A stretch of 44,917 nt of DNA from NCBI GenBank assembly GCA_049999805.1, contig JBNGIO010005642.1:1-44917 (forward strand), written 5' to 3'. Under the pieces are notes generated by a model. The model did no database searches. It worked only from the letters and a program-made list of their open reading frames with translations, and was not told the origin of the DNA. A program made the translations under genes and the position numbers. This stretch comes from Folioceros fuciformis. Taxonomy: Eukaryota. Below are positions 12,292-35,263 of the stretch, in pieces (the stretch's first letter is position 1; each line of letters opens with the position of its first letter).

Positions 12292-13641
12292 ATGGAGGCC
12301 GCACAAGCGTATGTCAAGCGGTCTCGCTTTGAGGATTATCAGGAAGACGGGGATGCGAATGCTCCACTGTCGAAGCGCAGTCGTGTTCGAGGATTGCATG
12401 TTGATCCGCTCGAAGACCTCGCGCTTTTACGGCATGAGTTCGGGGAGCATGGAGGGGTGAATATGTCTATTGAGGCTTCCGCAACTTTCACGGTCATGGA
12501 GCCTGAGACCATGGGGAAGTTGTTTTCTGGGGAGCTGGGACCCGAACGGGATTTTTACATCTACAGCCGCCATTTCAATCCTACGGTGCTCAATCTCAGC
12601 AGGCAGATGGCAGCCATGGAGGGTACCCAGTCCGCCTATTGCACAGCGAGTGGTATGTCAGCTATCTCCGCAGCTCTTCTCCAGCTGTGCAGCACCGGAG
12701 ATCACATTGTCGCATCCAGCCGGCTGTATGGAGGAACATACGCTCTTCTTGCTGAGTTCCTGCCTCGTGTTTCTGGGATTACCACCACTTTCGTAGACAT
12801 TGAGCACCCGGAGAAGGTGCGAGCGGCATTTCAGTCATCAACCAAGGTGCTTTACTTTGAGTCTGTGTCCAATCCGACTCTTGTGGTGGCAGATATTGCT
12901 AAGCTTGCATCTATCGGGCATGAGAAAGGTGTAAAGGTAGTGGTTGATAACACCTTTGCCCCTCTGCTCATCTCTCCAGCCCGCTTAGGGGCAGACATTG
13001 TTGTCCACAGCATCTCCAAGTACATCAGCGGTGGCAGTGACATCATTGCTGGGGCGGTGTGCGGCTCCCAGGAATTTGTGAATTCCATGATGGGTCTGCA
13101 GCAAGGCACGCTCATGCTTCTTGGGCCTACAATGTATCCTGTTGTGGCCTTCCACATATCCAGTCGGCTGCCTCATCTTGGTCTTCGTATGAAGGAGCAC
13201 TGTGCGAGAGCATTGTCATTCGCAAGGAGGCTGAGAAAGCTTGGCTTGAAGATTATCTACCCCGGACTTGAAGATCATCCCCAGCACGAGCTTTTCAAGA
13301 GTATGCTAAATGAGGGGTATGGCTTCGGAGGAATGCTATGCGTAGATTTGGAGACAACTGAGCGTGCCAACAACTTCATGCGCCGTTTGCAGAATGATTC
13401 CAAATTTGGCCTTATGGCTGTGAGTTTGGGTTACTACGAGACTTTGATGTCTTGCTCAGGCTCGAGCACTGCCAGTGAGATGCCGAAGACGGAGCAGGAG
13501 AAGACGGGAATCTCTCCCGGTCTTGTGCGGATGTCCGTTGGATTCACTGGTTCCCTGGAGCAGAGATGGGAGCAGCTTCTGGATGCTTTGGTTGCCTTGA
13601 AGCTTGTGAGGGAAGGGGCAAAGCTCCAGTCCTTGATGTAG
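12292..13641 (+). CDS. MGL: Methionine gamma-lyase (PLP-dependent Cys/Met metabolism family), intronless CDS
   Basis: HEFGEHGGVNMSIEASATFTVME, YIYSRHFNPT, TASGMSAIS, VVDNTF, PLP lysine motif HSISKYISG and GLVRMSVG are characteristic of plant MGL. Confidence 0.93.
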   Translation: MEAAQAYVKRSRFEDYQEDGDANAPLSKRSRVRGLHVDPLEDLALLRHEFGEHGGVNMSIEASATFTVMEPETMGKLFSGELGPERDFYIYSRHFNPTVLNLSRQMAAMEGTQSAYCTASGMSAISAALLQLCSTGDHIVASSRLYGGTYALLAEFLPRVSGITTTFVDIEHPEKVRAAFQSSTKVLYFESVSNPTLVVADIAKLASIGHEKGVKVVVDNTFAPLLISPARLGADIVVHSISKYISGGSDIIAGAVCGSQEFVNSMMGLQQGTLMLLGPTMYPVVAFHISSRLPHLGLRMKEHCARALSFARRLRKLGLKIIYPGLEDHPQHELFKSMLNEGYGFGGMLCVDLETTERANNFMRRLQNDSKFGLMAVSLGYYETLMSCSGSSTASEMPKTEQEKTGISPGLVRMSVGFTGSLEQRWEQLLDALVALKLVREGAKLQSLM

Positions 13642-13940
13642 CCATCGTGACTTCACACCCAAGTGTGGGATCACATCTCTGAGTCGCTCTGCTGTTACAC
13701 ATTCAAGCAGCTCGTTGTAATGTTCATAGCTTGAATACTTTGACAAACTTAAAGTCTCGTTACTTTTGTACATAGTATTTTCTATGACCGTATGTCACTG
13801 CAAGGTTAAGCATGAAGCTTTTGAATTTTTACATACTTAAAACAAAGTATTAGGTGTTAGGCCTTCATCCCAAATCTCAATAACAAGGTTCAAACTAGCA
13901 CTCCTCTCCCTCTTCCTTGGAGGTGGGGTAAGCCACTAAG

Positions 13941-14810
13941 CTAAAAGAAAACAATAGATAAATTACACAACTAAAAGCAAACACCAAACATATCACACAA
14001 CTGAAAGCAAACAATAGACAAACCACACAGCTAAAAACAAACACCGGACAAACCACTTGGATAAAAACAAATAGTAGACAAATCACACAACTAAAAGCAA
14101 ACACCAAACAAACGACATAGCTAAAAGCAAACAGCAAACACCAGACAAACCACTCAGCTAAAAGCAAACACCAAGCAAACACCAGACAAACCACTCAGCT
14201 AAAAGCAAACACCAAGCAAACACCAGACAAACCACTCAGCNNNNNNNNNNNNNNNNNNNNNNNNNNNNNNNNNNNNNNNNNNNNNNNNNNNNNNNNNNNN
14301 NNNNNNNNNNNNNNNNNNNNNNNNNNNNNNNNNNNNNNNNNNNNNNNNNNNNNNNNNNNNNNNNNNNNNNNNNNNNNNNNNNNNNNNNNNNNNNNNNNNN
14401 NNNNNNNNNNNNNNNNNNNNNNNNNNNNNNNNNNNNNNNNNNNNNNNNNNNNNNNNNNNNNNNNNNNNNNNNNNNNNNNNNNNNNNNNNNNNNNNNNNNN
14501 NNNNNNNNNNNNNNNNNNNNNNNNNNNNNNNNNNNNNNNNNNNNNNNNNNNNNNNNNNNNNNNNNNNNNNNNNNNNNNNNNNNNNNNNNNNNNNNNNNNN
14601 NNNNNNNNNNNNNNNNNNNNNNNNNNNNNNNNNNNNNNNNCAAACACCAAGCAAACACCAGACAAACCACTCAGCTAAAAGCAAACACCAAGCAAACACC
14701 AGACAAACCACTCAGCTAAAAGCAAACACCAAGCAAACACCAGACAAACCACTCAGCTAAAAGCAAACACCAAGCAAACACCAGACAAACCACTCAGCTA
14801 AAAGCAAACA
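13941..14810. repeat. Tandem array: ~6 diverged 30-bp units grading into homogeneous 41-bp units; spans the 400-N assembly gap (14241-14640)
   Basis: CTAAAAGCAAACACCAAACA...-type 30-mers from 13941. CAGCTAAAAGCAAACACCAAGCAAACACCAGACAAACCACT 41-mers on both sides of the gap. Confidence 0.95.
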
Positions 14811-16279: not shown

Positions 16280-19219
16280 TCAGAGATGCAACCGCCACAC
16301 CCCTGCAGCTTCACGATTTGCCTTGAGTGCTGCCCTTGAGACATGTTCGAAACCCCACACCTGCGAGGGTCACATGCAGGTTACACCACCGCAACCACTT
16401 CCAAACACAACACGTCAAACAAAACACCAGTCCAGGTGTCCAGAAGAAAAGTACCTCCACATCTTTTGCCACGAATTCCTGAGAGTGTGCTAGACAGTAG
16501 CTCCCAAAAGTTTCGGATGGGCCACTAGTTCCGTTCAACCTTCAAAAGCGAAAAAAACAGAAAAAAAGAAAAGAATCAGAAGACCACATTACTATCAAAA
16601 TACCGTGAATTAACAAAAAAGATGATTTCATGATGCACTATCCAGCTTACAGCTCAGCATCAAGGGTCAATGCGAAATGCTTTGTGCCTCCTCCGAACGC
16701 CAAGGTCTGTCGCCCACAGAGGACATAATACGAGTTCACTCCTGCCGGGCACGGGCACAAAAATATAGGCTGTAAGTACATGGACACCTCATACCCACAA
16801 GTGTACACAACTAAGGGAATTTCAGGGGAGGAGAGACGAACCTGTGGGCCGAAAGATCTTCAGTTTACCAGATACATTTGTGAAAACGAACGAGCTGTTG
16901 GTGCCCTGCAGTACAAAACATAACTGCCATGACTAAGCACAACAAATATTAAACCAAACAACAAATCAAGCCGCTTCAGTCGGATGCGAACCTGATACTT
17001 GTCTTGTGAGACTTGAAAAGATGACGTGTGTAAACCTCCGAATACGGCACCTTCTCTATCACCTGTCACCTGGGAACAGAAGCCCGACCATGACTACAGC
17101 AATAACGCCCCATTGAAGACCAGAAGAACTCCAAACACAGACTCCAAACACAGACTCCAAACACAGACTCCAAACACAGACTCCAAACACAGCAAACGAT
17201 CTCGTACCAGTAAGCACGGACCATTGGAGCGTGCAGTTTTCCTGTATAGTGCTTGAAGAGACATGCCATCCCTTTGCGTGCTGGCAACACCACAAGTGAT
17301 AACCAAGTAAACAAAAATGTGCACAACACCAACAAACATGTCACTAGTGGATAAAGCCGAGATTGCACCATCCTGATAAACCAAATCCCGAGACTGACCT
17401 GTAGAGCAACACCCATTGGCGGCCTTGAGATACAAGAGGAAGAGCTTGGTGGATGAGGGACCGAAAGTCAGGAGCGAGGAGACATGAGGGTTCAGACATG
17501 GAAGGCAGCGGCTCCAACTGCGACAGCGCTGCATTCTTATTCTGGTCTGGACCTACAGTCATCGTCATGTCCTGTTCGGACACCAGTTGCCACTCACTTT
17601 CATCAATATCCTCAGCCACAATTCTACCTCTACTACCAGAATTTTCCACCACCTCCTTATTGGTCACATCCCCAGCCTTAGGGTTCTTAACCTTTGGTTT
17701 GGCTTTGGAGGTGGTAGCTTCAGGCGGTCCATCCCTTGCTTCATGGTAATCATCATGTAAAGCGGTGTCGTCTGAGGAGGTTACACCTGCCTGAGAGCAC
17801 GAGAGTAAGGACAATAGGAAGGCTGTCAATGAAGATGTATCAGGTCCATCACATCGCTGTTTTGAATCGGTCTCCTTTGCCGTACCATCCGCTGGCTTCT
17901 CCTGAACATTGCAGGGAATACATGACACCATTCTGTCAGGTTTCGCTATATTTCCTGAGTCATTCGTGCCCTTCCTCCGTCCATACGATATGGAGAAACA
18001 CATGAGGCGACCACAAGCCAAATGCATCATACTAAGAACTTCTCCACAAAAGAACATCAACAGACCAATACTCGCATATTTGTCCAGGCCTCCATAACAT
18101 CTGCACGCATCACTATCATTGTTCCAGAACACCCTCGAATTGCATAGGCTGCAAATGCGAAAATGTATTGTACCATAGCACAGAACAAATCCCCGTGGTT
18201 CACAAGATATTCAACAATCAAATACCAGCATACACGCACAGAACTAGATGGCCGAGGTACGGCTCCCACCATGCTCCACTCTAGTTCGACTCGCTAAACT
18301 CACTGACGAGACCAGATCCTCTGCATGGACCGTGCAATGAACCAAGCAGCAACTGGTGAAGGCACACGGTGCCCTAATTCACAGTCAAATGTTCCGAAGA
18401 CTGATTCAGGGTTACCCAAATTCGGAATCACTACTGGAAGTCAGGCCGGGAATATGCGGCTCAGACCACAACCGTAGCTTCCATGATACATCCAGTCAAG
18501 AGAGAACAGCGACCGTTGACACCCGAATCACGCCATACAGACACGAGACCTTTAACGCCCCTTCCAAAGACACGCACACGACATGGGAGCAAGAACGCCA
18601 CAGACACATCCACGGCCAAACCCTAGACAATAATTGGCTAACTACACCTCCCAGCTGGCTCGAGTTGCGAGGCTCCACCTTATCTAACTGAAAGAAAAAC
18701 CACTCCGATACTGGCACTCCCTGGACCGGACAACAATCCGCCCAATCCACCTCCTCAGCTACAATGCCAAAGGGTTGGACAGCTATCCCAGCTTCGTTAC
18801 AACACTCGGAAGAGAATGAAACTCACCCGCAGTGGCTCCTGCAGCGACACACGCCGTGTGCAACAGGTGACAACAACGAAGAACCAGCGCGCAAACATCG
18901 CCATGCGGATAACTTCGACGAATTACTTCCAACGCCCAACCCCCGAACACTACACAGCGCATTACCATGCAAGCGGAACAAAGGGCGAAACACCCAGCAG
19001 AAACAACGTACGCCAACCGGCCCCCAATACGACCAGGCAGCAGGCAGGCAGGCAACAAGGCAGACAGACGGATGGCAAATGTGCAAGATAGAAATTAACC
19101 TGAGCTTCTGAGTTATCCCGACTGGAGCGAGAAACGGACTTAGGGGACGGATCCAACAACAGGCGTTCCACGGTATCGACCCACCCCAGCCCACTCTTGA
19201 GCAGTCCCACCCTCATCAT
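16280..19219 (-). CDS. TLDc-domain oxidation-resistance (OXR) protein, ~8 exons
   Basis: Spliced exons give GPDTSSLTAFLLSLLS...SEPSCLL...LPLVSQGRQWVLLYS|TQRDGMSLQALYRK...|GDREGAVFGG...KYQ|GTNSSFVFT...|LAFGGG..FALTLDAEL|LNGTSGPSETFGS..L...|VWGF. First exon 19219-19100 is tentative, but its phase is consistent with the exon starting at 17901. Confidence 0.88.
17128..17192. repeat. 13-bp minisatellite x5 in a TLDc intron
   Basis: ACTCCAAACACAG repeated five times. Confidence 0.9.
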
Positions 19220-20711
19220 GCTCAAACAGTCGTTCCGGCAGTGGAAGACGTCAGTCAACCCAATCCTGTTAAAATCCTGCGCTTCCTGTCCTCCGGTACA
19301 CAACTCCTCATGAGATCGGTGTTTCCCCGAGACCCGGTGGATCAAGGTCCAAGAGCCTCTCACGCTTGCAATTCCAATTATCCACACATACCGTCCGTCC
19401 GTACGCAATTTGTAAATATAACTCTATCAATATCACGGCAGCCCGGGAAGAGCCCCGTATCAAATGCCGGCCTGCCCTGGCCCTCTCCAAAGGCCAAACC
19501 CCAATCCAGGATCACGTCCTCACTGTTGGCGGCGTCTTCATGCATCTACACACCGCATCGGCATCTGTATCTGCATCCGCTTCTCCCTCTGCTTGCTTGC
19601 TTGCTTTGATTTCTGGTTTGCTTGAGGCGCTGCAAATTCCTCCTTGCCCCGCGCCTGCTTCTGCGCTATGCTGTTGGCCAATCTGAACAGGAGATATGGC
19701 ACATGCAGCAGGAGGAGCCTCCCTGTCTTCCCGCCTGCCCTGCCCGTAAGGTAAAGTCGCGCTGCGGCCCCCGCTCCACCCCGACCCTCGCCTCCTCGAG
19801 CCTCTGTGTGGCGAGCCCACGCCTATCACCTCCCTAACCGGGGCCGCGGTCAAGCTAACCCAACGGCCAACCTGCATGACAGGTTCGAACTCGGTACGTG
19901 TCAGGAAGTGGCTGAGTGAAGCACTTTCACTGGCCAAGACTATCCCAGATCCTGGCTTCATCGACAGAGAAGGGGCAGGACAAACGGAATGTGGATGTCA
20001 CACAGGCTGACCCACACGGTTTTGTTCCAGAATCTATGTGACCAGGCAGAGAAGGTCCCACGCGGCAGTTCCGTAGACGGCCATGCGGGGAACGGAACCT
20101 ACGCAGACAGGACAGAGGCCTACAGGAGACAGCTGCAGGAAGTGATGTCTCTTACCATATTCGGCACCAACCTTGGCCGGAAGTCCCAGCTGTATAACAG
20201 GACAAGGAAGATCAAGCGAGAGGGACTGAGAACTGTGCGAGAGAGGCGGCTACGGTGGCACCATCGGCAACAGCAACAGCAACAGTCATGACACAGTAAA
20301 CGGAGACGGCGCACAGGACGAGTCATAGGACACTTGCCAGAGAAGCAAGCTGGTGGGTGCACAAACAGGATCGAGTGAGAAGAGAAGGACGGAAAGGCGA
20401 AGAAAGAAGACTACATTGAATACAACGAGGCTTTTCCACCGGTTACCACTCCCACCCACTCCCAGGTGTGACAGATATGCAGATAGATATGTACAAATGC
20501 CCTCCTCTGGCTAAACTGCATTCATTCTGCGCGCAAGGCTGCACATTCCAATCTGGGCCCATGTCCCTTTCATCGAGCTCCTCACAAGCTCTCGAGGGAC
20601 TTCCTACACCGAACAGAACGGAGACACCCGGTCGCCGATCTTCACTGCCTATAATTACGTAGCTGCTTTTGGATAACGTTACACCCGCTTCTTAAATACG
20701 ACAGCCCGGCA

Positions 20712-23700
20712 CTATCCCGCAGGACCACGGTGCGCTGTTGTGTCACCAGGGTCGCCAGCTTCGCCCACATCTTTGGAGCTTTCAGCGTCTCTGGACATTT
20801 CCCAGCCATGGCTACGGCCGTAGTCGTAAATCTCCGCGAGCTTGGTTCATCCACACAACACGAGTATTAGCGTGACCACAGTAGAGCCGGAGAACGAATT
20901 GTGACCCTTGTTCTTGCAGTTACTTAACCCTTGGACTGTGTGTACCTTGGCGGGAAACTGTCCCAAAGCCACCAGTTCTTTGTACTTGGCATACAACCTC
21001 AGGGCCTGCAGAGATGCGGTCGAGTACAATCAGGTCTCGTGCATCATAGTTTGCATCAAGGTGCATCTGAATCAGATTTGTGTCGCAAGCAAGCCAGACA
21101 ACAGACAAGCCGACAAACAAACGGACTGACCGTGCACGCGTCCTCGATACTATCGTGCGTCTCATTTTGGATGTTTGCCTGCACACGAGAAACGGGCTCA
21201 CATTCTACCCCGAGATGAAATCAGAGGACAGATGAACATGCCGTAATCGAGCTGCATTACGTTAAGCAGATACGATGCCAGGAATCGTAGAGACAGCTTG
21301 CGCGACTTCTTCAGATGGAATAGTTCCACAGTGTCAATGATCTGCACATGCACGCGCGTTGAGAACCCTAGCCACTGTTTCCAACTGTTGCAAACAGTCC
21401 AATGCTTATGCAAAAGGACAAAACCTGCTCCTGAGGAACAACAATGTTGATCATTCGAAAGTCCTTCTTCAATCCGTGGCCCACAAACAGGCAACCGCTG
21501 TCGACCTACATCATTACAGGGCAGCTGTCAGACAGCTCATACACCTACGGCAGGTTGCTGCCGAGACAGTGACGAGATTCAGGAGAGAGGTCATGACTAC
21601 CAGGAAACGCAGCTTCAAGTACGCTTTCTTCAACGTAGTTACAGGATGCTTTGACGTGGTAGGGTCCTACAAACAGAAATGACATTGATGTCAGCAAATA
21701 TGCCCCCCCCTCGCCACACGGTACCGCTTTCTGATTGATGAAAGGGGACGGCCAGAAGAGAGCACCATACACTGAACCCAAAGACTCACCAAGTCCCCTG
21801 GGGACACTCCTGAATATCTCGTCAAGTAGTCATGGACTGGTTCAACCTGAAGCAATCCGAAACAAGCCTCTGGTAAGAAGCAAGCTTTTGAAACCCAGTA
21901 CGTGTTCCCTCCAAACTAGATCAGACCAGAAGCAGCCAATCCAGTACTCACTGTACAAATGTAGTCGTCTATGCAGCAAACACCGGCCTTCTCTCCTGCT
22001 CCTCGGACCTTGAATTTCAGGAATTGGCAACCTTTAGACAGCTGCTTGAAAGGATCGCTACAAGAAAGTTCAGAGTCCCAACTGACAACAACCTTTGTAC
22101 TGAAGTGTCCCGTGGACACTTCAATAACGTGGACCATTGCAAACAGGAATTCCGTGAAGCATACATACCACACTCACACGAGCCAGTCCCAGGCGAGGAG
22201 GCCTTATGATGTACTCTGAACCATCAGCTCGAGAGCCCTGGTAAAGATGGATCCAGTCAGAAAGCACTAGCAATTTAGCTTAGCGACTTCAAACACAGAA
22301 AAATCAGTTCCTTCACAAGGTCATCATTGGTACCTTATCAGCAGCGGAGAGTGCGACAAATTCTGCATCAATCCCCAAAAGCATTCCCTGTGACCAAAGG
22401 CAGCATGATCAGATTCAACAGAGGGCCTAAAAAGAAAAGATCATCAGATGCAGGGCTGATGCAATACCGGTCTCGGAGATTCTGTAGCCATATCCAATGC
22501 AACAAAGGTAGAAGCGGCTGCGTCAGCGGCATCTCTTGACGGTTCAGAGATAAGACGGCGAAATAACTCATGGCTAATTGGTGAAGACACCTTCTGTGAC
22601 AACAGGAATGCGAGATAGAACACACTAACACACAAAAACAAAAGCTTGCCATCGGTTCTTCCGAAACAGATTGCATCTCTAATACGATTACCCGTGAGAA
22701 AACTGATGACATCAATTGATCCCCATCAGAAGTCTTCGGAGTATGCTCATGAACGCCTTCCGTTCCCTCCCAATCAGAGTCCTCAACGCGGGTGTAGTAA
22801 AGCAGACAGGGAACCTTTTGCTTCCCATACATGGTCACCTACTCCATGAAAGGCCATGTCAGAGCACTCACAGTCACAACAACCTGAAGGAACAAACAAG
22901 CCACAATGCAGGCTATTGCATAAACAAAACTCTGATCACATTACCACTTCAACAGCCGAACTTGGAGATATGCAAAAATCGTTGAATAGAACCCATTCAA
23001 ATGAATAGGGAACTCCTCGAGATAATGTTGATTGCTTAGAAGGGCCTGCAAGAACCAAGAAAGAATGAGTACAGAGCTCCACTCCCACGAGAAAAACAAG
23101 CGATGGCTGAGATGGCGTTTCTCGAAAGGGTTTCAAAATCATCCTCAACGCATTGCATTACCAGGGGGAGTGCCTACAGTTGGTGACGATGACGGTGGTG
23201 AATGTTTTTCAAAATAACGGGGGGGAATCTGTCAGAAGTCACAAACACAGAGATACAAAATGAGACGTTCTCATAAAAAAGACAAACAGCGGTTGTAAAT
23301 TGCAGGGATGTGTCTACAACGCACCTTTACGTGTGCGATCAGATGACCCTCACTTTCGTCTTCCAACCTTCCACCATTTTCATAATCGTCGTGAATGTGA
23401 GCTATCATGGCTGTCAACTCATAGATACCATGCATGGTAGCACTAACGCCGGCAATGGAAGTTTTCGCATTCAATTGCTCATTGCTGCCACGTTGTGAGC
23501 GATCCTGCATCAAGATGGTAAACCACCACATGTAAATTTGTCCTCGAAATTTAAGCCTCAAGGAATAGGGAAGTGGTTGCGACCTCAAGCACCCTGACTC
23601 TCGAATACTGAGGATCTAATGTGATCCCCAGACGGAATGGAAGCCATGGATCTGCCCCATTTTGATACGTTGATTTGGAGATGGAGGATCTTCCGCCCTC

Positions 23701-26700
23701 GGAAATGCTGGATTTGCTGTCTGGGCGGGCCTCCTGTGCCTCTCTGAACCAGAAAGATAGCTCAGCATCCCCCTTGACACAACAGTTGACAATGAGAACC
23801 CGTGGCAGGCTACAGGGCGCGCGAATCTGGAACACATTACAGCATAAGTACCATCTAGCTGCCGTGATCAATAGATAGAAGGGCAACAGTGAAGCCTGTC
23901 GACCTGGTGTACTTGAAGATAGCTTCGACATTCTGAACACCAGGCACGAACTTCTTCCTGTTTGCAAAGGCTCCTCTCCAGGAGCTCTGCAAAGGTTTGC
24001 AGCACTCCAGCCTTTCCTGTGGTATACTGTAAATCACAAGAACAAGCTTTCACACTCATTAAACCTTTTCAACTATCACAGCCAGGGTGTTAATCAACCA
24101 AGGTGTACATAGACTACCTGCAGGTCTACTTGGAATGAACGCCTCTCTTGAACAAGATCTTCATGTGAGGCTCTGAAACACTGACAGGTGCACAAATAAC
24201 TATAAGCTAGCTGTTTCAAGCCTGCAAGCGTACTCAGATCCAACTGCTAGTAACTGGAGACCTCGTGTCACCTTTGTGCGCAATCGGTATGTCATTCCAA
24301 AGAGGTAGTCACTCAGAGATGTGCCTTGAGAGGTAGGTTCGGAAGGGGTACTCCCACTTTGTGCCTCTTTGTGCAGCTGTGAAACAGATGATCTGTATAT
24401 TCAGAAACCATATTGAAAATCACAGAAAGGAACACGAAACAAAGATGACTTTCAGTTCACTTCATTCATGCCTACAGATTTGTTCTTTTCCTAAACAGTT
24501 TATGGATGCTAGCATGACTATGGGGGAAGGGAGAATCTCATGTGAAAGCACCTGATCAAGAAGGAATCTATTAAATGTCTGAATTTTCTTTGCGAGTGAC
24601 TTCTCCTTAGTACTTTCCCACTCATCAGGTCCTTCCACAAGGCCAAGAGCTGATGCCTCAGGGATTTGTCTCAATGCCCGCAACAAATTGGTGGGCTGCA
24701 AATCCAGATGGAATGAGAGGCCAAGGCAACGGCAAGGGTACATGCGACAGCATATGGCTGCACTAACACAGCTGCCAAATCGAAGGTTTCGATAGAAAGC
24801 AAGGGGAGGTACCTGACAGGTGTCACCTCTGGCAAGATCAAGCATATGTAGGACAAACCCAAGTTCACATGTGAGGCAAAACTCACGTTCGCAGATGTGA
24901 CGAGTGACACTAGACTGCAGGTGGGGAATAAAATAGAGCACCTGCCGAGACAGTGCGATGTGATAAAATGCCAGAGTACCAGAAGGACAAAACCAACATC
25001 AGGCAGGAGGGCAGCAACTCATGATAGCAAAGTCACATCTAAACTGACAGTACCTGCAAGAGCGAATTGCAGTAACTGTTGATGGTATCATTCTCCAAAC
25101 CTGCAAAGCGTGTCTTGTTGTAATAGCTGAAGTCAAACTCCTCATATTTGAGCTTAGACTGAGACTGCTTTGCTTCAACTCGCCGATAGCCCTTTGGAAG
25201 CCACTTGTATTTCAAGAGACCCCTCACACCTGAGAGCCCTAAAGACCTCCGATCAGTGATCGGTATACTTTCGATATCTGTCTGCAGCCCATAGGAACTC
25301 AGTATCACAAACAGCAGCGCATATAACAGCAAAAACAAAGATAAAGATCATAGGTCGACTGTCAGACAGAACGACTGATTCAGTATGGTCAGCAAGCGAA
25401 GACTGCCAGACATGTGTCACGTAGGTGAACATCCTGCCTACCTTGCCTTTTCGACGGGTATTGCGTAGACCCACAGAAGCTCGAGTGGCATCACCATAAG
25501 GACTCCCTAGTTGCCAGTGAGGATTCTGGACTACTTTAACAAAATCAACCGACTGTGTCTGCTCTAGCAATGATGGGTCGACTGTTCGTGGTGGCAAACC
25601 CACATGGATGGGCAATGCTGAATCCACTGTCGAAAACAATGTGCTGGAGAACGGCTGATATATATAGCTGAACGAATCCTTCTCACTAATGTGAACTTGT
25701 GGCCCTGTTGATACATCTGGGAGCTGTGCACAGGCGGCCATCACAACTCAAAAGGGCTAATATTTGTGAGATAAGAAGCAATCTTACATCCAGCGTCAAC
25801 CACCAAGTTCATGGAGCAAAAGGGGGAGTTGACACCACAAAAATGGTTCAACTCACGCTTTCATCAGTTGCAGCATTTCAGGGCCTGAAGCGGGAAACGG
25901 AAAGACAAGGCTCCCTGGACAGGAGGTAGTTTGTCTAGGTGACACACGAAAGGACCTAGAAACGGATGCGCACATGGTCCCACTTACAGCAAAGCTAAGC
26001 AAGTCCATCACATTTCAACCAGGTGAATCACAAGATAGTACCTCAGTAGGTTGAGAGAAGAGATTGACGCGAGCTCGATCAAAAGTACCCCATAAATGTA
26101 TAAAGCCCCCGGAATCGCCAAATGCTAGAAGCTCGCCAGAATTTGAGACATCTGAAGTGAGCAGAAAATCTTCCCCACAGTCCACCTGGAGAATGGTTCA
26201 GTAGCAAAGGTCAAAAGCTGTTCACTGGAGTAGATGTCCGTAAAATGTCACAACCAAGCTCACAGAGTTCTCTAAAACGTGCAGCAGAGACAACCTGATA
26301 TGTTTGACAATCTGTGCCTCCACCTTGTACGTCAGTCACGAGGATAGCCCCTGTTCCCGCAGTGGCTACAACGATACTCGAAAATTTGGGTTGGAAGTGC
26401 AGAGTTGTGGGACCAGCAACGAAAGGGATGTGTGTCAAAGGACGCACGGCCTGCCTAATATCAAAAACCTGCCATAGGGAACTCTAAAGTGTGAACGAGG
26501 TTGAGCGAATATGCGTTCATATTGATGTGGGATAAATGCCAGAAACCATCCACAAGCCAATAATGTACAAGTTGGATAATAGTCTGAATAACTGAGGGAG
26601 CAAGGACCTTTATGACTGGCTCAGAATACAGTCGACCCATATGCTGTGTGAGCCCACACGACACAAGCAAGTCGCCCTTAAGCTCCAGCGAAGTAATTTT

Positions 26701-28512
26701 TCCTGGAATGAGCCATCAAACCAAGAGCCTGCGTACTTGGATCATAAGGAACCCCACCTTGAATGCAACACTGAGAAAGAACTACTTATTGTCAAGGTCT
26801 TTATCCTATGGAGTCGAAGACATACATAGGAACATCAATACAGGTGAACCAAGCACAGGCGTGGATACGTAAGGCCCCCACCATGATGCATAGGCAATAC
26901 TCCGGAGACTCAAAACCGTGATCTATACCAAAGGTTGACACACACCTGGATGAGCGTCTACAGAGTGCTCAGTTTTCAATGTCCTAAGATCCTTCAAGCT
27001 GAGCTCTCCTGCGGTGCCCCCACATGCTACAAGACGACCATTGCTTCTCATCACAGAGATACCCTGGCTCGTGTGGACCTGCACCAGAGCAAACGTACAA
27101 AAGGGTAGTAACTCATCTTGCTCTGTAGTAGGGGTGGCACACAGGAACTACCACCAGAGATAGCAGCAATCCTTCAAAACTCTGTTATGTATCCAAACAG
27201 CAGGATAAAGCAGGTACCGATGAGGAAATAGAAGATGTAGCCATATCGAACACAGAGATTCTGTTCCCAGCGTGACCCAGCAACACACGAGCTGCTGCAG
27301 GACGCTCCCATTCACAGCATAGCATATCTGAAACACCCTTATCCCTGCAAAGAAACTCTTGTCAGAAGAACGCTGGAAAGGCACGACTCAAACAAAATGC
27401 GTCAGATCTCTCACGTGACAAATTGGAAGGTGATGACTCTAGATCGTTTTGAATTAACTTGCCTGAAGCTTAAGACAGGGAGACCACCTCGTGTGTGCAT
27501 CCGTAGAGCATCGGCACTCACGGAAATCACACCTTCTGTTGTGAGCAGCAATCCGACCACCATGCCATTATGTGCTCCAAAGACCGAGTACTTCTGCATT
27601 GTCGGGCAAATGTGAGAGTGTACTGTCCCCTGCACGCAATCACATGTCGATGTCTTACTGCTATGCCGAAGGGCAAGCTACCTCTCTCTAAAGCACCACA
27701 GTAGCCAGCTCTGCCATGGAAAAACTACACAGATATCTATCGACACAATCAAATGCACCGATGCCTATGACATGGCGGATAGAAGTGTCCATGAAGAAGT
27801 CGGAGATTGGTGTCAAGGAACTGTAAGAATTGGATCATATGGCCATATTTCTAGAGGGCTGACCTAACATTGCAAGCTAGGAGCAATGTGCATCCTGACG
27901 CCCATCATCAGGATGAGATAAATTCGTTGCCACCACACCAATGTCTGACAGGCAATGCAGCTGAGGCATGCCTTATGGTGCGCAACCAGCTCACCAAGCT
28001 GAAGTTCCCCCGACCAAACCTCCGCACAAATCTCCCAGCAGAACGCGTGGAGACCCAAGAATTAGACACTGAAGCCCACATCGCCCCGACAACGAATCCA
28101 GGAAATCTTGAGCCCGCATCCCCATCTCCCATCCAGCCCCAGCACGAGGAGCCACACACGCATGCAGGGTGCCCCAGACGCAGCGCCACACACCCACAAT
28201 CCATACACAAACCCACCAAGCTTCCGCTACAAAATTCAGCCCGCTCCAATTCCCCTTCCCAGAGAGATTCCAACCACACACGCCGATGCACCAATTCCCG
28301 ACCCCTCACACGGCAGGCGGAGCACCAGCTGCCAGAGCAAGCACGCAACAAGCATAAGCACAAGCAGAGGCAGAAGCACAGCGCCCGGAACCTACAGACG
28401 CAGACGCGGTCCACAGCAGCTCCATGAGCGGATCGAAGATGGCCCTGCAGACGGGATCCCGCGCCCGCTGCTGCAGCACGCACACCAGCTCGCTGAGCTT
28501 CTCCCCAACCAT
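20712..28512 (-). CDS. PAN2: PAN2 poly(A)-specific ribonuclease catalytic subunit (WD40 + pseudo-UCH + DEDD exonuclease), >20 exons
   Basis: N-term [20 protein letters not shown]...YSVFGAH...[10 protein letters not shown]40 [25 protein letters not shown]. Linker/[77 protein letters not shown]. Nuclease [77 protein letters not shown]. Confidence 0.93.
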
Positions 28513-29982
28513 GTTGCTGCGTCATCCAGCGCTGGCCGTCACAGGAGCAGCCGCGGCCCCGCCTTGTCTCTGTCCCTGCAGCCCCTGCCCTTGTCGTCCG
28601 TCTCCATCTCCCGAGCCCCGCGCGCTCTGAGCAGCTCCCACGCGTGCACTGTCCCTGGACAGCAGATGCCCCGTGCCTCGATTCCAGCCTCCCCCGGCCG
28701 CCTGCTGCTCCAGGACGCCGCAATGCTACCAGGGAAATTAATGCGCAGAGCCCGAGGTAGGCAAGGAAGCAAGGCGATGCGATGCGATGCGATACGATGC
28801 CCGGAGCAGACGAGACGAGACGAGACGACTCGTGACGACTCGAGACGAGTCGAGCCGACCGGAGCCGAGCCTTCCTTGTGAGAACGTGCGTGTGTGTGCC
28901 GTGGTGACGGTGGTCTCTGCTGGGGTGACCGAGCTGCTCCGTGGCAATACGCGTTTCGCCACCTCGTTTCAACGTACAGTACATACTGCTAACCTCTGGT
29001 CATATGTACATACATACATAAATACCTAGGGAGTTCTAACCTCTGCTTATGCTAGGGGTTTCGCTAAGCTAGGGCGTTAGGCGAAGTGGGGGAGTTTTTC
29101 CTAACCTCTGTATTCTTCTTAACTAATGGTTGAGTGATGAAGAGCGGTAGGTCTCCCTCATTGGGGAAACGGATGGGATACTTGAGGCCCCTCGATGGCC
29201 TTGTGATGCAGGACCTTCCAGGAACTTGCACTCGTGCTGGTCATTTTCTCTATCTTGTGTCATGACTGACTGAACTTATGTTCCAATTCTGCTTGTCAAA
29301 AGAGATAGTCTACAAATCGGATTCAAGAGACATATCTGAACATGTCTCTTTAGGCAGGACAAGGACATGCAACAATCTCGTGAGATAGGGTGTATACATC
29401 AGAATCAAGCTTGGGAGAACGTTGGTGCAGCCAGGATGAGACTGAGATGCTTCTCCTGTTCCTTTTATGTGCACCTGTGTGGGAGGGGCTGCCTGGCGCA
29501 GAGCGATTAGAAAACAAGTCTCCTGGCCCCCTCTCTCCGCGCCCCCACCCCACCTGGCACCCTCCCCAGCAACGCCCTGTCACTCACCTTCGTGCGGAAA
29601 GCGGAAAGGGCTGTTGAAGAAAGGGACAAGGTGAGGGGAAGGAGACGGCAGAGAAAGAGAGGAACATATTTATATCTGCTGGAGAGCAGAGACAAAGGAG
29701 CAACTACGAAGGAGAAGGAAAACCAAGGGCAGGGATATGTATCATCTAGTTTGAGAAGAGACAAAGGAGACAGCAAGTCCGCAGAGAAGACAATGCAGGA
29801 ATGAAGGCAACCAGATGCGAGCTTAATTTATTATAAATTTAGTAGGGTGAAGCATCAATATACATACCCAGTTCCCATATAGAAAGAAGTCCTGTGAGAT
29901 CAAACGTGTTCATGATGGATAACATTTGAGCTGATCCCAACAAGGTGCGAAGACAAAAATGACTGACAAACGCTAGTGGAAG

Positions 29983-31526
29983 CTAGTCACTTGTTAGAGG
30001 ACGGGCCAAGCAGCCGCACCGAAACCTGGCCCTGCGGACAGTGGAGTATATCTCCACTTGTGCCTCTTCCAACATTGCTACGATATGAGAAAACACGGGT
30101 CTCACTTCAGGATTGCTATCCCAACACCGAGTCATGATGTCTTGCAGCGCCACAGGGCAGTCCTGCGGTATGGTCGGCCGCACCCCCTTGTTACACACTG
30201 CAAACGCTGCTTGGACTGCTGTCATGTTTTGGAAAGGAAGGAGGCCCGTAATGAGCTCCCATAGAACTATTCCGAAGCTGTACACATCCACCTTCTGCGT
30301 GTATGGTCTGTGCTGGATCATCTCCCTGCAACGCCAGCTCATGCGGTTTAGCTCATGCAGTGCACTGGAACGGGCGGGAAGCTGCCCCACAAGGTGTAAA
30401 AAGCTGCTGCTTGCTGCTCAAACCAAGTGGCAAAGCACCTCGGCCCACTCCCAAAAGGTTCTCTAGCTTCTAGAAGAAACACAAAAAATGCTACGAGACA
30501 TGACAGGACCCACAACCCACAGAGACAGCCCCAGCGCAGAGCAGAGCAGGACAGGACAGGATGAGTGTTGTGAAGGAGGAGGAGGAGGAGGAGCGGCGGG
30601 AGAAGCAGGAGCAGGAGCAGGAGGGAGGGAGCTTACGGCGCCATCCAGCGATATGTCCCAGTCTCAGGAGTCATGCCCTCGGCCTGCACCTCTATTCTAG
30701 CCACGCCGAAGTCAGCAATCTTGATAGACCTGTCGGTAGCGATGAGAAGGTTGTCAGATTTCAAGTCTCTGTGAATTATTTCCAAGCTATGCAGGTACTC
30801 CATGCCGCGAGCTATGTCAAGGGCCTGCTTGACAGCAACCTTCAATGGCACCGAGCGGGACTTCCTGCGGCTGAGGAATGACCTGACGGAGCCGCCTTTA
30901 GCGTACTCGGTCACAATGCACCACACCATGGGCTTCCTGCACGCTCCTATGAAGCGCACCACATTCTGGTGACTGACGTTAGCCAGCATGGTCACCTCCT
31001 TGGCAAACTGGTTCTCCATCCTCAGAGCCCGCGGCAGGTCGTTCTCCGGCCTCTCCAGAATCTTGACCGCCACATCCTCCCCATTGTAGGTGCCCTTGTA
31101 GAGCTTCCCGAACGCCCCCTGCGCAAAGGCCGGCCCCATCCGCAGCCTCCGCAGGTCAATTGTCCAGTCATCGTACCCCTCCAGCCCGTCCGTGGGCAAC
31201 CTGCCGTCCATGAGTGCCGCCGCCAGCACGTCCTCCCCTAGACTGTGCGGCACCGCCAGGTTGGGCATCACCACGCTGTGCGAAACGGAGGCGCTGGGCG
31301 TCCTCACCCGAGACCGCAGGTCCGGGTGCATCAACACCGCCCTCACCGAGTTGTTGGAGCCCACGCTCGAGTCCCCTGCTGTGGACATGGACACGGAGCC
31401 CCCTCCATTCATGGTCGTCCTCATGCTCCCGATGCTCTCCACCGACATGTCGGACCCCTCCGCCAGCCGCTGGTAATACTCATCCGGGAACACATAATAC
31501 TGCTCCTGGTACGTCGCCATCGCCAT
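29983..31526 (-). CDS. Raf-like group C Ser/Thr/Tyr kinase (STY13/Raf22-like), 2 exons (31526-30637, 30325-29983)
   Basis: [77 protein letters not shown]-terminus. GT-AG intron inside the MAPE motif. Confidence 0.93.
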
Positions 31527-33695
31527 CCCTCCGACCTCAGCAGACTCACATCCCCTCCTTCTCTTCTCTTGTCCTCTCCTCTCCTTTGCTTTGCTTTCCT
31601 TTCCTTCACACTCCAACCCACAAAACCCACCACCCACTACTCCTAATGCCCTAGCGAGCTGGGCACCCGAATTGGCCTGGCCTCAGTGTCCGCCTTCAGA
31701 CCTAAAGCTCCACCTCCGCGCCAGCACACGGCAATTGGGGCCCCCATAGCCAGTCCAGCGGGGGAGGACGAAGAAAGCCCGTCCACCTGAACAACAATGC
31801 CCGCACCTGTTGCTCACGTGCCGGGTGCAGCAGCAGAAGAAGCAGCAGCCGCAGCCGCAGCAGCAGCGGCAGCCGCCGCCGCCGCCATCCTGAAGCTGAA
31901 GCTCCTGTAGGGAGGGAGGTCCCAGATCGGACACGAGCTGCGAGAATGCGCAAATGAGAAGTAAGGAGGGCAGGAGGGTGAGGAGAGAGGGGAAGGATGG
32001 AGGCCGTGCCGGGCCGTGCGGTGCCGTGCCGTGGGCTGGCCTAGCGTGGCCGCGGCCGTACTCTACTAGCGGGGCCTGCAGCACGGAAGCAGGCAGAGGC
32101 AGCAGCGGGGCGTGCTTCGCGTCCGTCCACAGTAGCCTGGCCTGGCGTAGCGTAGCCTTGCCTTGCCTTGCCTAGTGAAGCTGCTGCTGCTGCTGCTGTG
32201 GACGAGGAGGAGAAGAGGAAGGGAGGAAGAAGGAGGCGGGACCGGGCACGGGCACGGGCTGGCCGGGTAGACAGACACTGGCACACACTCTGCACACTCC
32301 AGCCCAGAACCCAGGACCAGAGCCAGAGGCAGAGCCCAGTCGAGCCAGGCCAGGCCAGGCAAGGCGGGGGGTGAGGCGAGGCGAGTCGAGTCGAGTCGAG
32401 GCGATGAAGATAAAGAGAGATGAAGGGGACAGAGACAAACGGCTGGGGCTGCCGCACCTGCAGCCTTAATGCGATCCGCCCTTCCCGGCAAGTGTGTGTG
32501 TGAAGTGGCTCAACTAAAGGCATGAATGAAGACGGGCCAGCCTTCCCCCCCTCTCTTCTTCCCTTCCAGGGGTCCCCACCTTCGCAGCTCGCGCCGGCGA
32601 AATCGCAGCTTTCGCCGTGGGTGACATGTTGATAACCCGTCGACACCACCTTGGGCTTTGCCTTTGCCTTGGGCCTCTGCCTTGGGCCTCGCCTCGGCCT
32701 CTGCCTGGGCCTTCGCCGTCACCTTCGCCGTTTCCTCCGCCTTTCAAACCTCCCTATCACTCCCGCCTGCCTGCCTTCCCACGTCCCCACCCAACCCACA
32801 CACCCCGCCACAAATGGATTTGGGATCTGCATCTCAGAAATCTCAATCCCGTGGAACGCATCTATGCACTTTTCACACTCCTGCCACAATCAATGGATCC
32901 ATATCCTGGCTGCATTAGCACCGCAACCACGGTTGTTGGTCCTTCCCATTCACCTTCATCCATACTGACAAGAAGCGGAATGGAAGACGGTGCTACACAA
33001 TCTGGAGAGCAAGTTTAGTCCTTCAGCACCAATTAACTTAAGCAACTGCTGAATCCTGGGAGCCATCCTTTCTGTAAAAGTGAGTGACAAGACATGGATC
33101 GAGGAAGGAGGGCAGTGCCGTACCGGATGCATCTTCACAACACAACATAAAGCAACGTGCATCTGGCCCTACTGGGACAGAGACTACGACACATGATGGA
33201 GAAATTGTTCCAACATCATTTACCATCGCTAACGTTTCACGACTCACGATTCGGGCTCGGGGAACAGGCACGCCTAATTGGACTCGGTAAGTTCTGCAAC
33301 CAGCACGCGGGGCTGGGACCATCGGACAGGCAGGCCTTCAGGTGGCGATGCGCACAATCCCTGACTGCTGCCAGGCCAACGTTCGGAATTCGACATCGGA
33401 TCACATTAAATACTAAAATCTGCGGAATCACGTAGCAGCTGAGGCCGAGTCCAAGGGGGCCCTCGGACAGCCAGCCACTCAGGTACAACTCTACCCCACA
33501 AACGTTGTACTGCAACTTACTCGCAGCCGTGCCAGTGAGTGCGCGCCGACGGACAGTGGGCAGATTCTTGAAACTTCCTTCTCATTTGAGCCACAGCTTC
33601 GTCATACAAAGATTTTTCTCTTGGAGAGGAATAAGCTCTCATCAAAAATGCTGATGATAACAACAGGGGAATCCTATCGCAGACCTACCGTACTC

Positions 33696-34508
33696 TCATT
33701 CGGCTGGCATCGTCCTGATGATGTCAGAATCACCTGCACACGCAGGCGACATGAGTGAGAGTGCGCAGAGCAGGCGCTTCGTAGATTTCCCCAGCTAAGC
33801 AGAGGAAAGGGAAGCCGTGACAGCGGGTATATACCAGGATCTGTGATACTCAGACAGCTCACTCTGTAGTACTTCCCGCAGGCGGTACCCAGGTCGACGT
33901 TGTCTGTAAACGGATGCAAAACAACGAGATTTAGGCCTAAGAAGCTGGCGACGTGCTGGCTGCTGAGCGTTCTCGCAGTCCACTCGGAAGCAAGCCAGAG
34001 GGCACGGAGAAGGGGAAACCTGAAACCCTCAAGAAAAAACCGAAACCCTCAAGAAAAAACTGAAACCCTCAATCCTGAGTACTTACTGCCGCTGTAGTGG
34101 TGCACGCCGGTCTTCGACAACATGGCGTAGTACTCAATCTCTGATTTTCTTAGAGGCGGACAATTGTTGGAGATGATGACAAGCTTCCCTGTGAGCAAAA
34201 AAACGAGATCCCCCAAGTGAGCAAACCAGAACGACCCCCGACTACAGCCCTAATCCACGAAACGCAGAGGCGTCGAGTTCGGATTACCCTTTCCGCTACG
34301 CAGCGACTTCAAGCATGTTTTGTAGCCGAGCGTGAACTTGCCACTCTTCATCACCAGGGCAAGCCTGTTGTTGATGCTCTCCTGAGCCTTCTTCTGTTCC
34401 GGGTTCACAGGTATAATCCAACACACGTTAGCACTCAGCCAAAATCTACAAGCTAAGCACGCAATCGCAGAGCTGCCGAGAACGCACCGTCTTCTTCGTG
34501 GCCACCAT
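33696..34508 (-). CDS. RPL30: 60S ribosomal protein L30 (eL30), 5 exons
   Basis: [32 protein letters not shown]...|[69 protein letters not shown]. Confidence 0.97.
34021..34072. repeat. 20-bp tandem repeat in an RPL30 intron
   Basis: (T/C)GAAACCCTCAAGAAAAAAC x2.5. Confidence 0.8.
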
Positions 34509-35263
34509 TTTGACAAGGCGTGAGAATTCCGGCGCAGAGGTTGGGCGAGCGCGGGACTGACCTGAACGCCTTCCGCGTAGAAAGGCAGAGAGAGTCGCAC
34601 AAAAGCCCTAAATCGCCACAGAGAAATGGAGAGAAGGGATACAGAGAGCGGACATAAGTACTTTAACCAGGAAATTATATTAGGAACTACTATGTGTATG
34701 TAGTCCTAAGGCTAACTGGAATAGTTTGGAATGAACCTCAACGTACAGTACATCAACGTGGACGGGGGCACATTCATTCCACATGGAACTGAAGTTCGTG
34801 AAGGATCTTCTTTTTGTGGAAAACGGAGTCCTGCGTAACGTCCATTGCGGATTCCTGGTACACCATCTCTAGGTTCTGAAGGATTGTCTTTCACGACTGG
34901 ATGGTACCCCAGGGGAGCTCCAGAATTAGGTCAGTGGGGAGCCAAACGCTGCACCAACAGCTCGTCGGAATAACACGACCAGAAAGGGTGCACCGCGTCG
35001 GTCCCTCTCCCGCTGCCTGGTACGAAAACTTTTCGACCGAAACCTTCGTTTTTTTTTTTTTCTTCCTTCAGCACCGTTGTCTCCTGGCTTCAGTGCCTGG
35101 ATCTGCAGCGTTGTGGTCGTTGCCGGGCAATTGATTTGATTCTCAGACCAGACCAGAGGACTTGGCGAAGAACGTGGAAGTGGACATGGATTGGAGATTC
35201 GGGGCTGCCTTTCTGTGAAGTGGTTGATCGGGAACTCGGGACGATATTGTTTGTACCAGGGCC

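What the first reader, a model, noticed from the sequence alone, without database searches (positions are those of the whole stretch)
20712..28512. Complete, catalytically intact PAN2 deadenylase in a land plant
Seen: spliced exons rebuild all three PAN2 modules. The DEDD residues are present ([22 protein letters not shown]). The UCH domain has the expected pseudo-enzyme Cys box (INSYCNS, Ser at the catalytic position). Splice phases were consistent where I checked them. Known: PAN2-PAN3 is the PABP-stimulated first-phase deadenylase of fungi and animals, and it is generally described as missing from Arabidopsis and flowering plants. Inference: this lineage keeps a PAN2-based mRNA deadenylation arm that is little studied in land plants. 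The intron-rich structure among plant housekeeping genes argues for vertical retention rather than contamination or recent HGT.
Basis: partly seen in the sequence, partly recalled or inferred. Interest (0 to 1): 0.75.

Follow-up and report, generated by a model that had tools for sequence, protein, structure and literature searches.

The report
Intact PAN2 deadenylase, probably hornwort
This is an intact, spliced gene for PAN2, an enzyme that trims mRNA poly(A) tails, in what is most likely a hornwort; mosses are already known to keep this gene, so it is an ordinary new family member unless the genome proves to be a vascular plant.

Summary
Thirty exons on the minus strand (28512-20712) join to a stop-free 1198-aa PAN2 with WD40, linker, USP-like and DEDDh domains; catalytic D972, E974, D1081, H1128, D1133 are all present. 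Spliced contigs from two probable RNA runs match 15 of 15 listed joints. The protein is 58-60% identical to three moss PAN2s, is their sister in a tree (support 1.0) and shares intron positions with a moss-like locus, so it is vertically inherited. The novelty is small: moss PAN2/PAN3 is published, with loss placed in vascular plants (PMC13130582). A neighbouring gene's tree, 51% GC and short introns point to a hornwort (about 80%), by elimination only; a lycophyte placement is not rejected (AU p=0.12) and would contradict that paper. PAN3 in this genome and enzyme activity were not testable. Side notes: no liverwort PAN2 was among 120 listed hits (possible second loss); the USP domain keeps the triad His and Asn/Asp and lacks only the Cys; the PAN3-binding linker has two unusual substitutions.

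The parts
20712..28512 (-). PAN2 gene, 30 coding exons, 1198 aa. Exons (first-last on minus strand): 28512-28396, 27629-27463, 27344-27218, 27078-26946, 26702-26608, 26468-26295, 26185-26042, 25723-25442, 25281-25054, 24941-24813, 24695-24552, 24376-24272, 24180-24118, 24026-23904, 23826-23584, 23504-23325, 23228-23162, 23045-22945, 22838-22692, 22593-22468, 22387-22334, 22237-22169, 22008-21952, 21846-21790, 21666-21601, 21505-21425, 21341-21261, 21178-21131, 21005-20946, 20840-20712
   Evidence: Gene model; RNA-contig joints and lengths; full-length match to moss PAN2
26042..28512 (-). N-terminal WD40 propeller (PAN2_N), about aa 1-315, exons 1-7
   Evidence: PF20770 on the aligned moss protein P0001 aa 16-303, E 8e-37, and on window exon 7, E 2.9e-4; alignment
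25442..25723 (-). WD40-USP linker, the PAN3-interacting region (aa 320-413, exon 8); conserved overall, but K382/V383 replace the usual G/Y
   Evidence: Alignments; counts (G 172 of 214, K 0 of 214; Y 161 of 215, V 11 of 215); role of the linker from PMC4158885 passages
22791..25107 (-). USP/UCH-like domain, about aa 472-890; Ser482 (25077-25075) at the Cys position, His812 (23345-23343) and Asn862/Asp863 (22983-22978) kept
   Evidence: PF13423 on window 24552-24941, E 6.6e-24; alignments; register from human A526/S867 in PMC5876348
20994..22381 (-). DEDDh 3'-5' exonuclease domain, about aa 968-1140: D972 (22369-22367), E974 (22363-22361), D1081 (21463-21461), H1128 (21157-21155), D1133 (21142-21140)
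   Evidence: Invariant among aligned homologues: 250/250, 250/250, 250/250, 244/244, 245/245 of 258 examined; line up with yeast D910/E912/D1020/H1066/D1071 by counting along the 6R5K alignment
28513..28859 (-). 5' leader of at least 347 nt, with a 22-codon uORF (ATG 28607, stop 28539) and an out-of-frame uATG at 28525
   Evidence: RNA contig X3 record 11 reaches 28859; uATG scan
20416..20711 (-). 3' UTR, at least 296 nt
   Evidence: X3 record 9 reaches 20416 and X5 record 17 reaches 20437; contigs do not show a true end
27345..27462 (-). GC-AG intron 2 (donor AG|GCAAGT)
   Evidence: Required for frame and for a gap-free alignment to mosses; consistent with contig length; joint not displayed

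Best explanation
This is the vertically inherited PAN2 gene of a bryophyte, most likely a hornwort. Shown: the gene is whole, spliced and orthologous to moss PAN2, and carries all five DEDDh residues. [quoted passage not shown] It belongs to the ancestral green-plant PAN2-PAN3 arm that mosses also keep and vascular plants lost. Rough odds by step: intact expressed orthologue 0.97; hornwort 0.8 (any bryophyte 0.9); active with a PAN3 partner 0.8.
For: Gene model without stops. 15 of 15 displayed joints match, in runs of two organisms from two studies. 58-60% identity to Ceratodon, Sphagnum and Physcomitrium against 46-51% to charophyte algae (best stretches) and about 33-37% to animals and a fungus. 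Tree of 26 sequences: window + three mosses 1.000, mosses alone 0.999, inside streptophytes. In moss-like locus L014, 4 of 5 introns in the span have GT..AG at the same codon boundary; the fifth has a matching donor. The window differs at 4 of 137 highly conserved positions. Lineage: the neighbouring methionine gamma-lyase forms its own clade with two organism-unnamed proteins (99.6/100), between liverworts plus two unnamed sequences and vascular plants; AU tests reject liverwort (p=0.036), seed-plant (0.015) and the P0131/P0138 placement (0.016). Window GC is 51% against 49.6% for Anthoceros angustus; mean intron 145 nt against 173. Moss PAN2 and PAN3 are in Table 1 of PMC13130582. PAN2 needs PAN3 and binds it through the linker (PMC4158885 passages).
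Against: No named hornwort sequence appeared in any call, so the lineage rests on elimination, one neighbouring gene and composition. AU does not reject grouping with the lycophyte Diphasiastrum (p=0.119) or with the unnamed pair P0129/P0132 (p=0.056); the branch that separates the window from vascular plants has only 68.8/77 support. PAN3 is unchecked in this genome (no genome held). The linker has K382/V383 where most homologues have G/Y. The RNA status of X3 and X5 is the tool's guess. A 297-nt X3 contig retains intron 4 at depth 19, against 44-103 for the spliced contigs. No activity was measured.
Confidence: 0.78

Rival explanations
1. The genome is a vascular plant, most plausibly a compact-genome lycophyte, that kept PAN2. 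The loss in vascular plants would then be multiple and later than published.
For: The AU test does not reject window + Diphasiastrum (p=0.119). The PAN2 tree cannot tell a hornwort from a vascular plant: both would be sister to mosses. The published claim rests on one lycophyte and one fern.
Against: The best tree puts the window apart from Diphasiastrum (deltaL 5.2; identity 75%, the same as to liverworts). No protein named Selaginella is among the 120 listed MGL hits. No named vascular-plant PAN2 is among the 120 listed of 263 hits. GC and intron size fit A. angustus. That Isoetes and Lycopodiaceae genomes are large and gene-sparse is recalled, not checked.
Confidence: 0.08
2. PAN2 here has lost or changed its PAN3 partner and works weakly alone, or mainly as a scaffold.
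For: K382/V383 in a linker motif that is G (172 of 214) and Y (161 of 215) elsewhere; by offset this may be the PAN3-pairing hairpin of Chaetomium Pan2 (inferred, not tested). PAN3 not seen in the window.
Against: The rest of the linker aligns with mosses. Point changes in the linker did not break PAN3 binding in Chaetomium (PMC4158885). PAN2 and PAN3 occur together or are absent together in all 20 species of Table 1.
Confidence: 0.1
3. The USP domain is a working hydrolase (Ser-His-Asn/Asp) or a ubiquitin-binding module, which would make the protein dual-function.
For: His812 and Asn862/Asp863 are kept where human PAN2 has Ser867. About a fifth of homologues (49 of 258 by BLAST, 50 of 258 by HMM; the named ones are green algae) carry Cys-His-Asn/Asp. 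Human USP52 was reported to have DUB activity without the triad (PMC5876348 passages).
Against: The nucleophile position is Ser. Ser there is common (94 of 245) and is also seen in Neurospora Pan2, whose structure was judged incompatible with catalysis (as cited in PMC5876348). That Cys-to-Ser kills USP activity is general knowledge, recalled.
Confidence: 0.05
4. The gene is a contaminant, a horizontal transfer from a fungus or alga, or a pseudogene.
For: None found.
Against: Sister to mosses with support 1.0; shared intron positions; DNA contigs of run X1 cover the gene with 0 differences in records 1-4, and a second organism has the same gene and joints; the one neighbour searched has land-plant best hits; no stops.
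Confidence: 0.01

Closest known systems
Moss PAN2 (Physcomitrium patens Pan2-like, Ceratodon purpureus M758_6G131500, Sphagnum magellanicum CY35_16G002500)
   Same: Same length (1188-1203 aa) and domain order, 58-60% identity, same DEDDh residues, same Ser/His/Asn-Asp state of the USP domain; intron positions shared with moss-like locus L014.
   Different: Lies outside the moss clade; linker G-Y replaced by K-V; shorter introns and higher GC than L014 (47% intronic and 50% coding, against 39.5% overall).
Human PAN2/USP52 (PDB 9QTU), yeast Pan2 (6R5K, 4Q8H, 4XR7) and Neurospora Pan2 (4CZW, 4D0K)
   Same: WD40-linker-USP-DEDDh layout; exonuclease motifs align without gaps at the catalytic residues (through the moss protein P0001).
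   Different: About 33-35% identity to vertebrate PAN2. Human has Ala526 and Ser867 at the triad Cys and His positions; this protein has Ser and His. Activity, PAN3 binding and PABP stimulation are shown for those proteins, not for this one.
Streptophyte and chlorophyte algal PAN2 (Chara, Chlat1, Mesvir1, Trebouxia, Chlorella)
   Same: Orthologues; green-lineage clade in the tree.
   Different: Many have Cys at the USP nucleophile position; Chara and land plants have Ser.
Active ubiquitin-specific proteases (MEROPS C19; USP7, USP12)
   Same: Same domain family: weak profile hits to USP12 (E 1e-5) and USP7; His and Asn/Asp positions kept.
   Different: Catalytic Cys replaced by Ser482.

Membership tests
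PAN2 deadenylase | N-terminal WD40 propeller (PAN2_N) | tested here: met
   Aligns end to end with P0001, which matches PF20770 at E 8e-37; window exon 7 alone E 2.9e-4
PAN2 deadenylase | PAN3-interacting linker between WD40 and USP | tested here: met
   Present and aligned, with two unusual substitutions K382/V383
PAN2 deadenylase | USP/UCH-like domain lacking the catalytic Cys | tested here: met
   PF13423 E 6.6e-24 on a window stretch; Ser482
PAN2 deadenylase | C-terminal DEDDh exonuclease with D-E-D-H-D | tested here: met
   D972, E974, D1081, H1128, D1133; invariant in aligned homologues
PAN2 deadenylase | Orthology with named PAN2 proteins | tested here: met
   Best hits are moss PAN2; tree
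PAN2-PAN3 complex | PAN3 gene in the same genome and binding to it | not testable with these tools
   No genome held; no earlier notes on this genome
PAN2-PAN3 complex | Poly(A)-specific, PABP-stimulated exonuclease activity | not testable with these tools
   Needs a bench assay
Active USP deubiquitinase (C19) | Catalytic Cys | tested here: not met
   Ser482 at the position of human A526
Active USP deubiquitinase (C19) | Catalytic His and Asn/Asp | tested here: met
   His812 at the position of human S867; Asn862/Asp863 in W-x-L-F-N-D, whose role as third triad residue is recalled
Hornwort (Anthocerotophyta) genome | Nuclear genes group with named hornworts | tested here: inconclusive
   No named hornwort sequence was available; position by elimination; lycophyte not rejected
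Hornwort (Anthocerotophyta) genome | About 50% GC, short introns, high gene density | tested here: met
   51% GC, mean intron 145 nt against 49.6% and 173 nt in A. angustus; high density stated in PMC8075897. Suggestive, not diagnostic

The most novel reading that the evidence does not exclude
The genome is a vascular plant (lycophyte) that kept an intact, spliced PAN2. That would break the 2026 claim that PAN2-PAN3 was lost in all vascular plants and give a natural test of whether this loss caused their long poly(A) tails. A milder and likelier novelty (about 0.5) is that PAN2 survives in mosses and hornworts but was lost separately in liverworts and vascular plants, since no liverwort PAN2 was among the 120 listed hits although Calypogeia and Riccia proteins are in the database.
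Probability: 0.08. Interest if true: 0.6.

Novelty: new member of a known kind. Interest (0 to 1): 0.22.

Why it matters
It adds a second, non-moss land-plant lineage to those that keep PAN2. This supports PAN2 in the last common ancestor of land plants and helps date its loss. PMC13130582 links the loss to longer poly(A) tails in vascular plants on the strength of one moss; a hornwort with PAN2, and possibly liverworts without it, would give independent contrasts for that idea. It does not reveal a new enzyme or mechanism.

Tried and rejected
Whole-genome search for PAN3: no genome is held; the scan's notes on this genome are empty. Exact look-up of three neighbour proteins: 0 of 3 in the collection. 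Names of cluster members for P0122 and the moss proteins could not be obtained, so P0122 stays without an organism. No run is on record as RNA; X3 and X5 are guesses, used only because they skip introns. Organism B's small word share (0.05) was laid and proved to be a relative's gene. The 50%-cluster search listed 150 of 4599 hits; none of the 138 new ones was closer to the window than the mosses (best 57% over 316 aa of the nuclease end). Short-exon searches of the PDB found nothing or chance hits only (E 0.36-1.3), so the USP register was taken from PMC5876348 instead. Papers: Pavlopoulou 2013 (PMC3859875) and the 2025 hornwort pan-genome paper are not held, so I saw nothing of them. PMC8075897 offered one supplementary file of 9,564 characters with no PAN2/PAN3 hit; its larger tables were not seen and may list PAN2. 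Fig. S6 of PMC13130582 was seen as a legend only. Searches 'PAN2 hornwort' (5 papers, none on this subject by title and abstract), 'PAN2 Marchantia deadenylation' (1), 'PAN2 PAN3 bryophytes deadenyl' (2) and 'PAN2 deadenylase Physcomitrella' (3) showed no report of hornwort PAN2; the library lacks most subscription papers. A search for Selaginella genome GC gave nothing usable in its listing. Rejected readings: contamination or transfer, pseudogene, angiosperm origin (AU p=0.015), and alternative exon boundaries that introduce stops (a 28-nt candidate exon at 25884-25857 and the acceptor at 22884; read). No structure or complex prediction was run: no PAN3 sequence was in hand and the fold is not in doubt.
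Full report
Observation. Three-frame reading of the minus strand and a splice-site listing gave 30 exons from ATG 28512 to TAG 20712. They join to 3597 nt and 1198 aa without a stop; 28 introns are GT-AG and one is GC-AG. Contigs of two runs that the tool guesses to be RNA (X3, same organism label as the best DNA holder; X5, a second organism) skip introns. Of 41 joints, 15 were displayed; all 15 match model introns and none shows in DNA runs X1 or X4. Contig lengths fit the model as well: 3354 nt for 3'UTR plus exons 30-5, and 892 nt for exons 4-1 plus the leader. The exon 4/5 junction is not directly shown, and a minor contig retains intron 4.

What it is. A search with a two-exon stretch returned 5 proteins of 946 candidates: PAN2 of Ceratodon, Physcomitrium, Chara, Sphagnum and one EukProt alga. 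The spliced protein is 58-60% identical to the mosses over nearly its whole length, 46-51% to charophyte algae over their best stretches and about 33-37% to animals and the fungus Diversispora. In a tree of the window plus 25 hand-picked of 120 hits it is sister to the three mosses (1.000), within streptophytes. A moss-like genomic locus (L014, 76% to Ceratodon) has introns at the same codon boundaries in 4 of 5 cases, and the fifth donor also matches. Contamination, transfer and pseudogene readings therefore fail. D972, E974, D1081, H1128 and D1133 are invariant in the 244-250 of 258 homologues that align there and line up with yeast D910, E912, D1020, H1066 and D1071 (counted along; their catalytic role is recalled, and the Chaetomium E899A mutant is inactive in PMC4158885).

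How it most likely works. Shown: an intact, spliced orthologue. Inferred from fungal and animal work (passages of PMC4158885; PMC10919355): the linker binds a PAN3 dimer, PAN3 supplies poly(A) RNA, and the DEDDh domain trims the distal tail before CCR4-CAF1-NOT. PAN3 could not be searched because no genome is held. One caution: the linker has K382/V383 where homologues have G (172 of 214; K in none) and Y (161 of 215). Point changes in this linker did not break binding in Chaetomium, so I give partner loss about 0.1.

The USP domain. PMC5876348 (passages) places the triad Cys and His at human A526 and S867. These map to Ser482 and His812 here, with Asn862/Asp863 also kept. The domain thus lacks only the Cys, as in mosses and Chara. 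49 of 258 homologues by BLAST mapping and 50 of 258 by HMM mapping have Cys-His-Asn/Asp; the named ones are green algae. An earlier AI note on another genome saw the same algal state and read it as a relic. I read the land-plant domain as inactive.

Which plant? This decides the novelty. PMC13130582 (section 5 read, passages of background and discussion, supplement hits) lists PAN2/PAN3 in Chlamydomonas (1/1) and Physcomitrium (1/2) and none in 18 vascular plants, among them one lycophyte and one fern, and concludes loss in all vascular plants; it does not mention hornworts or Marchantia. For lineage I used the intronless neighbour methionine gamma-lyase (120 listed of 2079). Leaving aside a 740-aa Escallonia model, the best hits are two proteins without organism names (82% and 77%), then liverworts and Diphasiastrum (76-77%), then seed plants (about 66-73%). 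Trees used 27 and 17 hand-picked hits. The window and the two unnamed proteins form a clade (99.6/100) lying between liverworts plus an unnamed pair, which I take to be mosses, and vascular plants. This is where a hornwort would fall. AU tests reject liverwort (p=0.036), seed-plant (0.015) and the P0131/P0138 placement, which I take to be ferns (0.016). They do not reject the lycophyte (0.119) or the moss-like pair (0.056). The PAN2 tree excludes the window from Sphagnum + Bryopsida (0.999). GC of 51% and mean intron of 145 nt agree with Anthoceros angustus (49.6%, 173 nt; PMC7027989 passages). No named hornwort sequence was seen, so this is elimination: hornwort about 0.8, other bryophyte about 0.1, vascular about 0.08.

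Distribution. Among the 120 listed of 263 PAN2 hits (8000 candidates scored, lengths 657-2093 aa), the only named land plants are three mosses. Calypogeia, Riccia, Diphasiastrum, Ginkgo and many angiosperms are in the same database. This agrees with the published loss in vascular plants and hints at a separate loss in liverworts. Split or unlisted models could hide a liverwort gene, so it is a lead only.

Verdict. A real, intact PAN2 and a new member of a known family. Its presence in a land plant is already known from mosses. I found no report of hornwort PAN2 in four searches of the held library, which misses most subscription papers; Pavlopoulou 2013 could not be read. Other papers seen as passages only: PMC12259633, PMC8509313, PMC8075897, PMC7319358, PMC7910438. 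Interest 0.22; 0.6 if the genome is vascular (probability 0.08).

Noticed in passing
P0006, P0007, P0009, P0012, P0016, P0020 and others; window 25077-25075, 23345-23343, 22983-22978: Many green-algal PAN2 proteins keep Cys, His and Asn/Asp at all three USP triad positions (49-50 of 258 homologues); land plants and Chara have Ser for the Cys but keep the other two.
   Followed up: partly
one search hit list: No liverwort PAN2 among the 120 listed hits although Calypogeia and Riccia proteins are in the database: a possible loss independent of vascular plants.
   Followed up: partly
window 28607-28539 and 28525 (minus strand): The PAN2 5' leader holds a 22-codon uORF in strong context ending 27 nt before the start codon, and a second out-of-frame uATG; translation may be dampened. 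Conservation not checked.
   Followed up: no
window 26703-26945: Intron 4 (243 nt, in frame, with an early stop) is retained in a 297-nt contig of run X3 at depth 19, against 44-103 for spliced contigs; pre-mRNA or a decay-targeted isoform.
   Followed up: no
window 25442-25723 (aa 382-383): K-V replaces the conserved G-Y in the PAN3-binding linker; X3 matches the window here without differences, so it is not an assembly error.
   Followed up: partly
window 195-4736 (+): Uninterrupted 1513-codon Ty1/Copia gag-pol frame (gag, integrase, reverse transcriptase by Pfam); fragments of a second Copia-like element at about 5367-6066 (-).
   Followed up: no
window 12292-13641 (+) and 40002-41621 (-): Intronless methionine gamma-lyase and intronless tyrosyl-tRNA synthetase with an N-terminal extension, beside a 30-exon PAN2.
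   Followed up: partly
window 10052-10124 (-): tRNA-Met (CAT) gene.
   Followed up: no
window 13939-14810: A 41-nt A/C-rich tandem repeat, with 30- and 60-nt relatives, flanks a 400-N assembly gap.
   Followed up: no
window 29983-31682 (-), 34250-34705 (-), 43614-43832 (+), 17344-18210 (-): Other housekeeping neighbours: a protein kinase (Pfam), an RRM protein (Pfam), and frames that look like ribosomal protein L30 and a TLDc-type protein (recalled resemblance, untested).
   Followed up: no
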